Of a stretch of DNA of 64,000 nt, positions 20,936 to 55,835 are shown one piece after another. Within the stretch, counting starts at the first letter, position 1; each line of letters begins with the position of its first letter. Below the pieces are notes generated by a model. That model made no database searches, was not told where the DNA came from, and saw only the letters and a program-made list of their open reading frames with translations. A program made the translations under genes and the position numbers. Source of the stretch: Dictyostelium discoideum (lineage: Eukaryota); assembly GCA_000004695.1 (NCBI GenBank), contig CM000151.3, forward strand, positions 5,088,001-5,152,000, in the 5' to 3' direction.

Positions 20936-22510
20936 ATAAAAAAAAAAAAAAAAAAAAAAAAAAAAAAAAAAAAAAAAAGTAACCTTTGACCAAAAAAAAA
21001 AAAAGTGAAAGCGAAAGTAAAAGTAAGAGTAAGATTTTAATTAATTGTTTTTTAATTTTTATTATTATTTTTTAATTTTTAATTTTTTTTTTTTTTGTAA
21101 TGGTTATATATTGGCCCTTTGCCTGGTATATTTTATTTTTTTTATTTTTTTATTTTTTTTTATATTTTTATATTTTTTATATTTTTGCATATTAAAAAAG
21201 TAAAATATAATAATTTTTTAAAATTTTTCCATGCTACTCACAGCATAATATCATGTTAATTTTTGTGATATTATTGACGTCAATAAAATTGATATTTTCA
21301 GATTCGCTTGATTAAAAATAAAAAAAATAAAAATAAAAAAAATAAAAATATTGGGATTTTTTTTTATGTTTCCCAACAGTTTTTTAAAAATTTTAAAGAC
21401 ACCACACCTTTTCCCAATAGAATTTTTGATTTTTTCCAAAAAAACAAAAAAAAAAAAAAAAAAAAAAACCAGTCATAACCCCTATTGTATGAATATTTGT
21501 GCTAGAATATGATTAAAAAAAAAAAAAAAAAAAAAAAAAAAAAAAAAATAAAAACAAAAATAATTAATAAATAATTTGGTGAAGGGATTTTTGATAGGAA
21601 TTCGGTAGTTTCCAAAATGTTTTATCAAAAAAAAAATAAAATAAAATAAAAAAAAATTAATTAATTTCATTGGTTAGTAGTTTCTTCATTATTATTTTTT
21701 TTTTTTTTTTTTTTTTTTAATTGTTGGTAAAAAATTGATTCCCCAAAAAAAAAAAAAATTAAAAATAAAAAGTGTTAGGGAAATCTGTTTGTTTTATTTA
21801 GTTTAATAGTATGTATACAATGGGAAATTAAAAAAAAAAAAAAAAAAAAAAAAAAAAAAAAAAAAAAAAAAAAAAAAAAAAACCATTTTATTTTATATTT
21901 TTTTTTTATTTTTTTTTTTTATTATTTTTTTTTTTATAAAAATTATATAACAACATATGTACTAGTTGTAAATTAAATTATTTGTTTAAAAATTAATTAA
22001 TTATTTATTTATTTATTTATTTATTAAAAGTTGTTTTTTTTATTTGTTCTTTTTATTTATTTTACATTTTCATTGCAAAAAATTCAAATCAAAACTTTTT
22101 TTTTTTTATAAGGTAAATAATTTTTTAAACAGTGTCAACTATTATTATTTTTTTTTCCACTTGTTCACTAAAATCTCCAAAAAAAAAAAAAAAAAAAAAA
22201 CACAAAGAGTAATTAAATCTCCAACTTACGTACGAAACATCAAAATCTTTTTTTTCATTTGTTCAAAATATTATTAAATAAAAAAAGAATAAAAAAATAA
22301 AAATTTTACTAAATTTCATTCAATATTTAAATTAGTAAATTTTTTTTCCAACTTCTGTTTTTTTTTCAAAAAAAAAAAAAAATTAAATTAATTATTTCCC
22401 AAACCTAATCTTTTTTTTTTTTTTTTCTATAATTTAAAACCAGACAAACTTTCTAAAAAAAAAAAATCCTTATTTAATAATAATAATAATTATAATAATA
22501 CTATTTCAAA

Positions 22511-22829
22511 ATGACATTTAATAATATTAAAGACGAAAATAACGATGATATTGCCATCATTGGTATGGGTTTCCGTTTTCCAGGTGGTGGTAATAATCCA
22601 GATCAATTTTGGAATCAATTATCAAATAAAATGGATGGTATTTCAAAGATTTCTCAAGAAAAATGGTCAAGATCTTTTTATGAACAAAAATATATAAATA
22701 ACGAATATGGTGGTGTCTTAAAAGATGAAGAATGGAAAAATTTTGATCCATTATTTTTTGGTATTTCACCAAAAGAAGCACCAACCATTGATCCACAACA
22801 ACGTCTTTTAATGACAACACTTTGGGAAG
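22511..22829 (+). CDS. type I iterative reducing polyketide synthase, copy A, exon 1 of 2 (KS N-terminus)
   Basis: [26 protein letters not shown]...[14 protein letters not shown] is the canonical KS start. Donor GTAAAT at 22830. Confidence 0.9.
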
Positions 22830-22972
22830 GTAAATAATAATAATAATTATAATTATAATAATAGTAGTATTTTTTTTTGTTAAAATTAAAAAGTTATTAA
22901 TATATATACATATATATTTTTTTTTTTTTTTTTTTTTTTTTTTTTTTTTTTTTTTTTTTTTTTAAAAAAAAG

Positions 22973-53930: not shown

Positions 53931-54036
53931 CTTTTTTTCAAAAAAAAAAAAAAAAAAAAAAAAAAAAAAAATTAATAACTTTTTAATTTATAATATTTAA
54001 TTATTATTATTATTATTATTTATAATTATTATATAC

Positions 54037-54355
54037 CTTCCCAAAGTGTTGTCATTAAAAGACGTTGTTGTGGATCAATAATTGGTGCTTCTTTTGGTGA
54101 AATACCAAAAAATAATGGATCAAAATTTTTCCATTCTTCATCTTTTAAGACACCACCATATTCGTTATTTATATATTTTTGTTCATAAAAAGATCTTGAC
54201 CACTTTTCTGTAGGAATCTTTGAAATACCATCCATTTTGTTTGATAATTGATTCCAAAATTGATACGGATTATTTCCACCACCTGGAAAACGGAAACCCA
54301 TACCAATAATGGCAATATCATCATTATTTTCATCTTTAATATTATTAAATGTCAT
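54037..54355 (-). CDS. polyketide synthase copy B, exon 1 of 2
   Basis: Track ORF 54029..54355 ([26 protein letters not shown]..). Donor GTATAT (plus-strand 54031-54036) after TGG GAA G, mirroring copy A. Confidence 0.9.
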
Positions 54356-55835
54356 TTTTAAATAGTTATAAACTATTATTATTATCTAAGGATTTTTTTT
54401 TAAAAAATTTGACTGGTTTAAAATTAAATTTAATATAGAAAAAAAAAAAAAAAAGGAATTTGATTTTTTTTATAAACTAAAAACAAAAGTTGGAAAAAAT
54501 AAATTTACTAATTTAAATATTGAATGAAATTTAGTATAATTTTTATTTTTTTATTTAATTTATAATATTTTGAAAAAAAAAAAATTTTGATGGAGATTTG
54601 TGTTATTAGTAATTTTTTTTTTTTTTTTTTTTTTTTTTTTTTTTTTTTTTTTTTTTTTTTCTCCTTTGGGGAGATTTTTATAAACAAATAGAGAGAAAAA
54701 TAATAATAGTTGACAATGCGACATCAATTTTGGGTGACAAAAGTGTTATGTTTTTTAAAGGTATTTCATATCGTATTGGTTGTTGAGGCTGATTTCACTA
54801 AAATTAGTTGACTTTATGTTGGAGTTGATAACTAGGCGAAGATTGTGGTGATTGTGGTGGGATTACTTTAATATTTAATTATTAATAAAAATCTTTTAGT
54901 AATTAAAATATATAAACATAAGTTTATAAAATGGTGCCCCTAAAGAAATTTAATTTAATTTGAAAATAATTAAAAATAATAATTTGCAGACAAACTCCAT
55001 TTTACAATATATTAAATAAATTGGTAAAATCCTATTTAATACATTAATATTTATTAAAATAAACTATAAGTTAAATTTAATACAAAAAAAATTAAGTTAA
55101 TAAACTGTACTTTTTAAAAATAAATAATTATACATATGGAACAAAATGATATATTGAATTAATTTTATTTATCAATGTGTTTAAGAAATGAATTATTATA
55201 TTTTTTTAGTTAATATAATTAATAAATTTAATAAGTTAATAGTATAAATAGTGTTTTATAAATAAATAATTGTAACTAAACAATTCAATTAATTATTAAT
55301 TGTTTTTACTTTAAAAATAAAATAAAAATTATTTTATACATAAATAAAAAGAACAAAATAAAAATAACTTTTAAATAAATTATTAACTTTAAATTTACAA
55401 TAGGAGAATATGTTGTTATAATTTTTATAAAAATAAAATAATAAAATTGAAAATAAAAAAAAAAATGTTATTTATTATTTTTTATTTTTTTTTTTAATTT
55501 CCCATATATACTAAACAAAAAAAATAGATGCAAAAAAATAAAAAAATATAATAAAAAAATAAAAGAATAAAAAAAATAAAATATACCTGGCAAACGGACA
55601 ATATAACCATTATAAAAAAAACCTTTATTATTATTTTTTTTTTATTGATATTATTATAAAAAAAAAAAAAAAAAAACAGTTTTAAAATAAATTATTTTTT
55701 ACATTTATTTATATACATTTTTACTTGTTTTTTGGTAGTAAATATTTGGATTGTGAATTTTAATGGAAGAAATTTAAATATATAGAATAAAGGAAAACAT
55801 TTAAAAAAATAGTAAAGATGAAAATGGACTACAGA

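What the first reader, a model, noticed from the sequence alone, without database searches (positions are those of the whole stretch)
22420..54445. Inverted segmental duplication carrying two intact, near-identical type I polyketide synthase genes
Two PKS genes, each about 2600 aa, face each other across about 14 kb of unrelated genes. Both have the same 2-exon structure, a phase-1 intron after codon 106, and the same KS-AT-DH-MTlike-ER-KR-ACP order. They are roughly 95-97% identical at the protein level and retain all catalytic motifs ([14 protein letters not shown], HxxxGxxxxP, the ER and KR Rossmann folds, DSL). The homology extends about 90 bp 5' of the ATG and about 900 bp 3' of the stop, into NAA15-derived sequence. 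The unit is therefore a roughly 9 kb inverted duplication, not two independent genes. Both copies are uninterrupted, which implies recent duplication, ongoing gene conversion, or selection for two copies. The differences are non-random: AT-domain residues next to the active-site Ser ([10 protein letters not shown] versus [10 protein letters not shown]) and a divergent patch with a 1-aa indel in the MT-like linker. This hints at diverging substrate or product specificity. Dictyostelium is known to have a large pks family with many paralog pairs. Which named pair this is, and what either enzyme makes, I cannot tell from sequence alone.
Basis: partly seen in the sequence, partly recalled or inferred. 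Interest (0 to 1): 0.75.

Follow-up and report, generated by a model that had tools for sequence, protein, structure and literature searches.

The report
Dictyostelium pks16/pks17 duplicated synthase pair
The two near-identical giant synthase genes are the already-described Dictyostelium discoideum pair pks16 (the presumed main fatty acid synthase, with a solved structure) and pks17; comparison with other strains indicates an old tandem duplicate, later flipped by a 24-kb inversion in the lab-strain lineage and kept similar by gene conversion.

Summary
Window 22511-30465 (+) and 54355-46435 (-) encode two intact type I synthases of 2603 and 2604 aa. They are 96.4% identical, with the same phase-1 intron and collinear flanks. 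By exact sequence they are D. discoideum AX4 pks16 (DDB_G0275069) and pks17 (DDB_G0275077). This pair is already published as 96% identical. Pks16 is the presumed essential, vegetatively expressed fatty acid synthase (PDB 9NJU). Pks17 is reported at late culmination.

The interpretation needs correcting on three points.

- **Origin.** Three other discoideum-clade assemblies carry the two genes in tandem, and D. citrinum and D. firmibasis have one copy. AX4 and a second, near-identical lab-type assembly differ by a clean inversion of 31412-~55676.
- **Age.** Paralogue-specific sites shared across strains show the duplication is old. Most informative sites (140-204, against 28-42 paralogue-specific) group by genome, which indicates lineage-specific gene conversion.
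- **Specificity.** The clustered differences are mainly tracts that escaped conversion. The flagged AT-site residues are not paralogue-specific, and the specificity motifs are identical.

pks17 carries 65 of 82 polarisable amino-acid changes and has large deletions in two wild isolates, while pks16 is intact wherever I read the locus. The pair is already known, so overall interest is low. The rearrangement and conversion history is a modest addition.

The parts
21089..22510 (+). pks16 5' intergenic region. It shares patchy homology with the pks17 5' flank. It keeps the ancestral upstream neighbours (STAT and two further genes).
   Evidence: blastn patches 21089-21178, 21865-22045 and 22130-22510 match 55621-55533, 55495-55315 and 54718-54356. 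The same upstream gene order is seen in D. citrinum and D. firmibasis.
22511..30465 (+). pks16 (DDB_G0275069). Exon 1 is 22511-22829, the intron is 22830-22972 and exon 2 is 22973-30465. The product is 2603 aa with domain order KS-AT-DH-inactive MT-ER-KR-ACP.
   Evidence: Gene model. Exact match to XP_643784.1 / Q869W9. Pfam domains. Full-length match (2603 aa) to PDB 9NJU, 'Probable polyketide synthase 16'. Catalytic motifs.
30466..31350 (+). pks16 3' flank, homologous to the pks17 3' flank. Positions 30771-31344 hold a decayed fragment of the last NAA15 exons on the minus strand.
   Evidence: Nucleotide blocks at 89-93% identity. tblastn of the NAA15 C-terminal exons shows in-frame stops, a frameshift and a 30-aa deletion.
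31411..31412 (.). Proximal inversion junction in the AX4 lineage. It lies about 60 bp beyond the end of the duplicated unit.
   Evidence: Collinearity with wild strains runs up to 31411 and then jumps to about 55665. The junction was read directly.
31412..55676 (.). Segment of about 24.3 kb that is inverted in AX4 and the second lab-type assembly relative to three wild assemblies. It carries FAHD, the WRKY gene(s), the mitochondrial-type KAS, a WD40 (PWP1-like) gene, NAA15 and pks17 with its promoter.
   Evidence: blastn of loci L001, L004, L005, L008 and L009 against the window. Gene orders. The same arrangement as the window is seen in the independent assembly GCA_054883475.1.
43000..46105 (+). 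Intact NAA15 (NatA auxiliary subunit) gene converging on pks17. The start coordinate is approximate. Its last exons lie inside the duplicated unit.
   Evidence: ORFs 43256-46105. The 814-aa product has a PF12569 NatA_aux_su hit in the matching loci.
45117..46434 (-). pks17 3' flank, homologous to the pks16 3' flank. It overlaps the functional NAA15 3' exons.
46435..54355 (-). pks17 (DDB_G0275077). Exon 1 is 54355-54037, the intron is 54036-53931 and exon 2 is 53930-46435. The product is 2604 aa with the same domain order as pks16.
   Evidence: Gene model. Exact match to XP_643790.1 / Q869X2. Catalytic motifs intact.
54356..55621 (-). pks17 5' flank, a diverged partial copy of the pks16 upstream region. 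It has not been homogenised with the pks16 upstream region.
   Evidence: The proximal 255 nt are 83% identical with 22% gap columns. Over 1 kb the identity is 59.7%, against 56.8% for an unrelated control.
55658..55677 (.). Distal inversion junction, inside an A-run. In wild strains the FAHD upstream region joins here to the 3' end of the 921-aa gene.

Best explanation
The two genes are D. discoideum pks16 and pks17, FAS-like iterative type I synthases with the domain order KS-AT-DH-inactive MT-ER-KR-ACP and no thioesterase. I infer the following history.

1. A unit of about 10.3 kb was duplicated in tandem. The unit held most of the 5' intergenic region, the synthase gene and about 0.9-1.3 kb of 3' flank, including the last exons of the convergent NAA15 gene. 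This happened after the split from D. citrinum and before the split of D. discoideum from its possible cryptic sister species.
2. The upstream copy (pks16) kept the full ancestral promoter context. The downstream copy (pks17) kept the intact NAA15 neighbour and only a partial promoter copy.
3. In the NC4-derived lab lineage (AX4, and an assembly that is probably AX2-214), a two-break inversion of 31412-~55676 flipped pks17 together with NAA15, the WD40 gene, KAS, WRKY and FAHD. Both breaks lie in A/T tracts. This turned direct repeats into the convergent inverted repeats seen in the window.
4. Repeated, lineage-specific gene conversion has homogenised most of the coding region. It has spared the promoters, the first ~1 kb, and patches at about 4.0-4.6 and 5.0-5.5 kb of the gene.

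From the literature, pks16 is the essential, vegetatively expressed presumed fatty acid synthase, and pks17 is a late-culmination paralogue. pks17 evolves about four times faster at the protein level and is damaged in some wild isolates. It therefore looks like a partly redundant copy distinguished by regulation rather than by chemistry.

Shown here: gene identities, structures, arrangements, junctions and site patterns. Inferred: the order of events, the assignment of the second lab-type assembly to AX2-214, and regulatory subfunctionalisation.
For: - **Identity.** Exact-sequence match to pks16 and pks17. PDB 9NJU is Pks16.
- **Literature.** The pair is 96% identical. Pks16 is the presumed primary FAS, vegetative and essential. 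Pks17 acts at late culmination. In vegetative cells 29 peptides were unique to Pks16 and none to Pks17 (PMC12828403, PMC12625978, both citing Narita 2014).
- **Tandem arrangement elsewhere.** Three assemblies show pks16-like(+), pks17-like(+), NAA15(-), WD40(-), KAS(-): GCA_054859385.1, GCA_054859355.1 and GCA_054859205.1.
- **Single copy in outgroups.** D. citrinum and D. firmibasis have one copy in the same neighbourhood.
- **Distal junction.** FAHD(-) lies next to the 921-aa gene in wild strains, as the inversion model predicts. Both junctions were read at nucleotide level.
- **Not a reference artefact.** The inverted form recurs in an independent de novo long-read assembly that differs from the window by 6 mismatches in 27.6 kb (assembly methods from PMC12745789).
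- **Gene conversion.** AX4 paralogues differ by 2.25%, against 3.5% and 4.8% for orthologues between strains. Paralogue tracts are 0.0% divergent over 1.5 kb in one strain and 1 kb in another.
- **Quartet site patterns.** Paralogue / genome / cross counts are 42/140/6, 32/147/3 and 28/204/2. By-paralogue sites are concentrated at gene nt 0-1000, 4000-4600 and 5000-5500, with a few between 5500 and 7000.
- **Asymmetry.** 65 changes are derived in pks17 and 17 in pks16 (p = 9e-8).
- **Damage in wild isolates.** pks17-like genes lack KS residues ~332-488 in one strain. In another they carry a frameshift and lack ER residues ~1769-2124.
Against: - The proximal inversion breakpoint falls within about 100 bp of the tandem junction. 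That is somewhat coincidental. It is less so if only breaks in the ~0.9-kb non-functional spacer leave the pks17 promoter intact.
- No North American wild D. discoideum isolate was available, so the age and spread of the inversion are unknown.
- The assignment of GCA_054883475.1 to AX2-214 is inferred from near-identity, not read from a record.
- The large deletions in wild pks17-like genes come from single long-read assemblies of a tandem repeat and could be assembly errors.
- Single copy in D. citrinum could in principle be a secondary collapse.
- Expression and function come from papers that cite Narita 2014, which I could not read.
- dN/dS of 0.42 and intact motifs show AX4 pks17 is not simply decaying.
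Confidence: 0.85

Rival explanations
1. One reading: a primary inverted segmental duplication. A copy of the ~9-kb unit was inserted in reverse orientation 14 kb away, and the two copies are similar mainly because the event is recent.
For: The AX4 window alone shows two convergent arms at about 96-98% identity with intact reading frames.
Against: - Three other discoideum-clade assemblies have the pair in tandem with the same junction sequence. The genes between the arms are inverted in AX4 relative to both wild strains and single-copy outgroups.
- A simple inverted insertion would leave the copy with the NAA15 fragment next to the 921-aa gene. In AX4 that copy sits next to the ancestral upstream genes instead.
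- By-paralogue sites shared with the possible cryptic species (28 sites) show the duplication predates strain divergence.
Confidence: 0.04
2. Neofunctionalisation: pks17 is diverging adaptively toward a different substrate or product. The clustered differences in the AT, MT-like and ER regions would reflect positive selection.
For: - pks17 carries 65 of 82 polarisable changes.
- dN/dS is higher in the MT-like linker and ER (0.61) than in KS, AT and DH (0.26-0.28).
- G652D alters a glycine that is invariant in 10 relatives.
- pks17 has a distinct developmental expression according to the literature.
Against: - No region has dN/dS above 1 with adequate counts.
- All catalytic and AT-specificity motifs are identical.
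- The AT residues 645/646 are shuffled between paralogues in other strains, and G652D is private to one strain.
- The difference clusters coincide with tracts that escaped conversion and that also hold the synonymous differences.
- pks17-like genes carry disabling deletions in two wild isolates.
Confidence: 0.1
3. Assembly artefact: the second copy or its orientation is an error of the AX4 reference assembly.
For: AX4 chromosome 2 is known to have assembly peculiarities and a large lab-strain duplication.
Against: - The copies differ at 168 CDS positions and have different introns and flanks.
- Both orientation and junctions recur in an independent de novo Nanopore+Illumina assembly.
- Both proteins are separate database entries.
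Confidence: 0.01

Closest known systems
D. discoideum Pks16 (DDB_G0275069, UniProt Q869W9, PDB 9NJU) and Pks17 (DDB_G0275077, Q869X2)
   Same: Copy A and copy B are these two proteins residue for residue. The published 96% identity, the inactive MT and the domain order all agree with what I found.
   Different: Nothing differs at the gene level. The three held papers that mention pks17 do not describe the tandem-then-inverted history, the conversion mosaic, or the damaged pks17-like genes in wild isolates.
Animal-type (metazoan) type I fatty acid synthase and mycocerosic acid synthase
   Same: Both have a homodimeric KS-AT-DH-(pseudo-MT)-ER-KR-ACP architecture. They are the best non-self PDB matches: MAS 9D2Z, human FAS 8VF7 and porcine FAS 2VZ8.
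   Different: Pks16 and Pks17 have no C-terminal thioesterase; the protein ends about 60 residues after the ACP serine. They belong to the Dictyostelium PKS expansion. How the product is released is not known from what I read.
Concerted evolution of duplicated genes by gene conversion, as in primate gamma-globin or Y-chromosome palindrome arms (from general knowledge)
   Same: Paralogues within a genome are more alike than orthologues between genomes. Converted tracts are mosaic and differ by lineage. The flanks and promoters escape conversion.
   Different: Here the repeat orientation itself is polymorphic between lineages: direct in wild isolates and inverted in the lab lineage. One partner is probably essential and the other is decaying in some strains.

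Membership tests
Iterative type I highly reducing PKS / FAS-like synthase | KS domain with the Cys-His-His catalytic triad | tested here: met
   DTACSSS at 176, HGTGT at 316 and SNIGH at 352 in both copies. PF00109 and PF02801 hits.
Iterative type I highly reducing PKS / FAS-like synthase | AT domain with the GHSxG nucleophile, the carboxylate-binding Arg and a malonyl-type xAFH-like motif | tested here: met
   GHSFGE at 639, VYYRG at 663 and CSFHS at 741 are identical in both copies. PF00698 hit. Reading these motifs as malonyl specificity rests on general knowledge, not on an assay. AX4 Pks17 has G652D at the conserved Ser+11 glycine.
Iterative type I highly reducing PKS / FAS-like synthase | Full reducing loop: DH (HxxxGxxxxP plus Asp), ER (NADPH site) and KR (Rossmann fold plus catalytic Tyr) | tested here: met
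   [10 protein letters not shown] at 968, DCAFH at 1132, SATGGVG at 1996/1997, GQTGIA at 2232/2233 and YSSAN at 2390/2391. Pfam PS-DH, ADH_N, ADH_zinc_N_2 and KR hits.
Iterative type I highly reducing PKS / FAS-like synthase | ACP with the phosphopantetheine-attachment Ser (DSL) | tested here: met
   GIDSL at 2540/2541. PF00550 and PF23297 hits.
Iterative type I highly reducing PKS / FAS-like synthase | Active C-methyltransferase (SAM-binding motif I) | tested here: not met
   No motif I-like sequence in residues 1441-1640 of either copy. Pfam gives only a weak Anamorsin_N-like hit. The structure paper labels the domain an inactive MT. This fits a FAS-like enzyme and does not exclude membership.
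Bona fide fatty acid synthase (function) | Demonstrated synthesis of saturated long-chain fatty acids, and essentiality for growth | not testable with these tools
   PMC12828403 and PMC12625978, citing Narita 2014, call Pks16 the presumed primary FAS. They report failure to obtain knockouts. I did not see biochemical product data.
Segmental duplication homogenised by gene conversion | Homology collinear through non-coding sequence (intron and both flanks), not only conserved domains | tested here: met
Segmental duplication homogenised by gene conversion | Paralogues within a genome closer than orthologues between genomes, with lineage-specific tracts, although the duplication predates the lineages | tested here: met
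   Windowed distances. Quartet patterns of 42/140/6, 32/147/3 and 28/204/2. The same tandem junction sequence in two wild strains and its two halves in AX4.
Primary inverted duplication | Inverted orientation present from the origin of the duplicate, so relatives carrying the duplicate share it | tested here: not met
   Three relatives carrying the duplicate have it in direct orientation. The intervening genes are in the outgroup orientation there and are flipped in AX4.

The most novel reading that the evidence does not exclude
In the lab-strain lineage, the inversion turned a deletion-prone direct repeat into an inverted repeat. That would protect the pair from collapse by unequal or single-strand-annealing recombination while still allowing gene conversion. 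Conversion from the essential pks16 would keep repairing pks17, so an otherwise decaying paralogue stays intact as a developmentally regulated second fatty acid synthase. On this reading, the orientation of the repeat decides whether pks17 survives: it is intact in AX4 but broken in two of three tandem-type strains whose DNA I examined.
Probability: 0.2. Interest if true: 0.4.

Novelty: already known. Interest (0 to 1): 0.2.

Why it matters
The gene pair and its function are already in the literature, so the finding itself adds nothing new.

The comparison made here has practical value for Dictyostelium work.

- pks16 and pks17 exchange sequence, so paralogue-specific reads, peptides, CRISPR guides and knockouts need to target the tracts that escape conversion: the 5' ~1 kb, and about 4.0-4.6 and 5.0-5.5 kb of the gene.
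- The reference arrangement appears to be a lab-lineage inversion rather than the form seen in the other discoideum-clade isolates.
- pks17 looks dispensable in some wild isolates, which bears on how much weight to give it as a second fatty acid synthase.

Tried and rejected
- **Polarity from the NAA15 fragment.** I first read the fragment beside pks16 as showing that pks16 sits in the derived copy. I dropped this once the tandem arrangement showed that pks16 keeps the ancestral 5' neighbours and pks17 the ancestral 3' neighbours.
- **Locus-tag adjacency.** I considered using it as evidence of arrangement. It is unreliable: ACTFIW_005045 and ACTFIW_005067 are physically adjacent.
- **Distal junction via the 210-aa ORF.** The look-up with 62001-62633 found only the lab-type assembly. 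One look-up failed on a coordinate error. The conserved L-PSP gene at 60814-61239 worked.
- **GST remnants.** I looked for remains of the GST gene that lies between PKS and NAA15 in D. citrinum and D. firmibasis. tblastx found none in the window.
- **Synonymous-only clustering.** The signal is weak on its own (variance p = 0.04, run-length p = 0.20). The case for conversion therefore rests on the multi-strain comparison.
- **Promoter conservation.** Evidence that the pks17 promoter is less conserved than the pks16 promoter is slight (86.6% against 92.2% in the proximal 255 nt), and I make no claim from it.
- **Unavailable papers.** Narita 2014 and Zucko 2007 are not held in the library.
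Full report

Yes. An inverted-repeat scan finds arms of 3.7, 3.0, 0.7 and 0.35 kb at 95-98% complementarity. A gapped blastn joins them into one alignment, 22179-30688 against 54651-46215, at 95.8% over 8530 columns. Further blocks reach 31344 against 45123. The window has about 22% G+C.

I built both gene models from the sequence:
- Copy A (+): ATG at 22511, exon 1 to 22829 (319 nt, hence a phase-1 intron after codon 106), a 143-nt GT..AG intron, and exon 2 from 22973 to 30465; 2603 aa.
- Copy B (-): ATG at 54355, exon 1 to 54037, a 106-nt intron, and exon 2 from 53930 to 46435; 2604 aa.

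The proteins are 96.4% identical, with 93 substitutions and 3 gap columns. The CDS is 97.85% identical. Pfam gives KS, AT, DH, an MT-like region, ER, KR and ACP.

**2. What are the genes?**

An exact-sequence look-up identifies copy A as D. discoideum AX4 pks16 (DDB_G0275069, Q869W9) and copy B as pks17 (DDB_G0275077, Q869X2). Both lie on an 8,484,197-bp contig, which from my own knowledge is the length of AX4 chromosome 2. PDB entry 9NJU, "Probable polyketide synthase 16", matches over the full 2603 residues.

The literature already covers the pair:
- PMC12828403 reports the 3.94 Å cryo-EM structure of Pks16 and calls it the presumed primary fatty acid synthase.
- The same paper notes the 96% identity to Pks17. 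It found 29 peptides unique to Pks16 and none unique to Pks17 in vegetative cells. It states that Pks17 operates at late culmination, citing Narita et al. 2014.
- PMC12625978 reports that pks16 is the only pks gene expressed in vegetative cells. [quoted passage not shown] 2007.

**3. Extent of the duplicated unit**

On the 3' side, homology runs 885 nt past the pks16 stop and 1318 nt past the pks17 stop, ending at 31350 against 45117. On the pks17 side this stretch is the 3' end of an intact, convergently transcribed NAA15 gene. Its 814-aa product carries a NatA_aux_su Pfam hit in the matching loci. On the pks16 side the same stretch is a decayed fragment with stop codons, a frameshift and a 30-aa deletion.

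Contiguous homology at about 70% runs for about 330-380 bp. Patches at 77-90% extend to 21089 against 55621, about 1.3-1.4 kb upstream. The unit is therefore about 10.3-10.5 kb.

**4. The inverted arrangement is secondary**

I fetched the genomic context of the closest homologues.

*Single-copy species.* D. firmibasis and D. citrinum each have one gene, in this order:
- a 1700-aa gene(-), STAT(+), two further genes(+), PKS(+), GST(+), NAA15(-), WD40(-), KAS(-).

*Tandem arrangement in the discoideum clade.* Three assemblies have two copies on the same strand, followed by NAA15(-), WD40(-) and KAS(-). These are GCA_054859385.1 and GCA_054859355.1, both labelled D. discoideum, and GCA_054859205.1, labelled D. 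cf. discoideum.

*Mapping the inversion.*
- Aligning these loci to the window shows collinearity through pks16 and its 3' flank up to 31411. The alignment then jumps to about 55285-55635 and runs backwards through pks17, NAA15, WD40 and KAS.
- The inversion model predicts that in these strains FAHD(-) lies next to the 921-aa gene. Loci fetched through the conserved L-PSP gene show exactly that. The alignment switches from 31405/31449 to 55665/55666.
- Read directly, the AX4 junctions are "...AATTAAAATTTTAAT|TTTCTGGTCG..." at 31411|31412, and an A-run at 55658-55676 followed by CAGTTTTAAAAT. The wild-type junctions carry the reciprocal combinations.

*Not a reference artefact.* The inverted form is not peculiar to the reference assembly. 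GCA_054883475.1 encodes identical Pks16 and Pks17. It has the same context and differs from the window by 6 mismatches and 116 gap positions over 27.6 kb. All these assemblies come from Holland et al. 2025 (PMC12745789), which used de novo Nanopore plus Illumina assembly. The set comprises:
- the lab strain AX2-214;
- two D. discoideum isolates (CR116C, OT3A);
- two possible cryptic species (M4B, S6B);
- D. citrinum strains.

I infer that GCA_054883475.1 is AX2-214. I did not read the accession-to-strain table.

*A coincidence worth noting.* The proximal breakpoint lies within about 100 bp of the tandem junction. This is less striking than it looks, because only breaks in the roughly 0.9-kb non-functional spacer would leave both genes and the pks17 promoter intact.

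**5. Old duplication plus ongoing gene conversion**

If similarity reflected only a recent origin, paralogues would be at least as divergent as orthologues between strains that share the duplicate. The opposite holds:
- AX4 pks16 against pks17 differ by 2.25% over the gene.
- pks16 orthologues between AX4 and other D. discoideum-labelled assemblies differ by 3.3-3.5%.
- pks17 orthologues differ by 4.8-5.3%.
- In 500-nt windows, the AX4 paralogue distance is 0.4-1.3% over gene nt 963-3913, where orthologue distances are 2.4-5.0% for pks16 and 3.6-15.2% for pks17 (the highest pks17 values fall in the two windows that overlap the FIR KS deletion).
- One wild strain has 0.0% paralogue divergence over nt 5360-6856, and another over 6357-7335.

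Four-taxon informative sites make the same point:

| Comparison | By paralogue | By genome | Cross |
|---|---|---|---|
| AX4 vs GCA_054859355.1 | 42 | 140 | 6 |
| AX4 vs GCA_054859385.1 | 32 | 147 | 3 |
| AX4 vs D. cf. discoideum assembly | 28 | 204 | 2 |

The by-paralogue sites show that the duplication predates these lineages. They are concentrated at gene nt 0-1000, about 4000-4600 and about 5000-5500, with a few between 5500 and 7000. The rest of the gene groups by genome.

The promoters are not homogenised. The proximal 255 nt are 83% identical with 22% gap columns. Over 1 kb the two upstream regions are no more alike than unrelated A/T-rich DNA (59.7% against 56.8%).

The highest paralogue divergence in windows that escaped conversion is about 5-6%, below the 9-10% distance to D. 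citrinum. This fits a duplication after that split.

**6. The non-random differences**

Differences do cluster, but the clusters coincide with the tracts that escaped conversion, where the synonymous differences are also concentrated.

The AT-site residues do not define the paralogues:
- V645/S646 of AX4 pks16 recur only in the pks17-like gene of one wild strain.
- Every other pks16-like gene, and D. citrinum, has I/P at these positions.
- These are two of the rare cross-pattern sites.
- D652 is private to AX4 pks17. It replaces a glycine that is invariant in the ten relatives compared. From general knowledge this glycine (Ser+11) is also conserved in FabD, animal FAS and DEBS acyltransferases.
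- The GHSFG, VYYRG and CSFHS motifs are identical in both copies.

dN/dS is 0.42 overall. It is 0.26-0.28 in KS, AT and DH and 0.61 in the MT-like linker and ER. The only value above 1 is ACP plus tail (1.11), which rests on five differences and carries little weight. I see no support for a change of substrate or product.

**7. Asymmetry between the copies**

I polarised the 93 amino-acid differences using D. citrinum and D. firmibasis. Of these, 65 are derived in pks17, 17 in pks16 and 11 are ambiguous (binomial p = 9e-8).

pks16-like genes are intact in all four genomes whose locus DNA I read. The annotated pks16-like proteins of the remaining isolate are also full length. pks17-like genes are less well preserved:
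- One D. discoideum isolate lacks KS residues ~332-488, including the second catalytic His, with a small inverted piece at the junction.
- One D. cf. discoideum isolate has a frameshift and lacks ER residues ~1769-2124.

These deletions could be assembly errors in a tandem repeat and need confirming against raw reads.

Taken with the literature, the simplest reading is as follows. pks16 kept the full ancestral promoter and the housekeeping role. pks17 is a partly redundant copy with altered regulation and relaxed constraint, and is intermittently overwritten by conversion.

**8. Verdict**

The finding is a correct description of a known gene pair, so its novelty is "already known" and its interest is low. 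Three things appear new relative to the papers I could search (only three mention pks17):
- the tandem-then-inverted history,
- the conversion map,
- the apparent decay of pks17 in wild isolates.

These are a modest addition to what is published.

Noticed in passing
window 59517-60678 (HSP20-family gene at 59676-60224, minus strand): This ~1.16-kb stretch, with its small heat-shock protein gene, is present in AX4 and the second lab-type assembly. It is missing from the two wild D. discoideum assemblies, where the flanks are about 150 bp apart.
   Followed up: partly
window 38494-40119 (+); L002 24801-26369; L003 25259-26860: A mitochondrial-type beta-ketoacyl-ACP synthase (KAS/FabF-like) gene lies within about 8 kb of the FAS-like synthase. 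It keeps that linkage in D. citrinum, D. firmibasis and all discoideum-clade strains examined. I only checked synteny.
   Followed up: partly
L002 18311-18934; L003 18503-19213: D. firmibasis and D. citrinum have a GST gene between the synthase and NAA15. D. discoideum has none there, and tblastx finds no remnant anywhere in the window.
   Followed up: partly
window 32434-33354 (-) and 33666-36359 (-): Two WRKY-domain ORFs with very long poly-Asn/Gln tracts. In the wild-strain annotations this region is a single 1160-1255-aa gene, so the two AX4 ORFs may be exons of one gene.
   Followed up: no
L005 9295-10000: In the D. cf. discoideum assembly the spacer between the tandem copies is only 706 bp, against 1780 and 2131 bp in the other two. 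It lacks most of the NAA15 fragment and the distal part of the pks17 5' flank.
   Followed up: partly
proteins P0004 and P0006 (ACTFIZ_009570 / ACTFIZ_009571): The two copies in this D. cf. discoideum isolate are 98.2% identical to each other but only 92-94% identical to the AX4 genes, which is the strongest homogenisation seen. I did not fetch their genomic arrangement.
   Followed up: no
window 54355-46435 (-), Pks17 residue 652: AX4 Pks17 has Asp in place of the glycine 11 residues after the AT active-site serine. That glycine is invariant in all ten relatives compared. The change might impair acyltransferase activity.
   Followed up: partly
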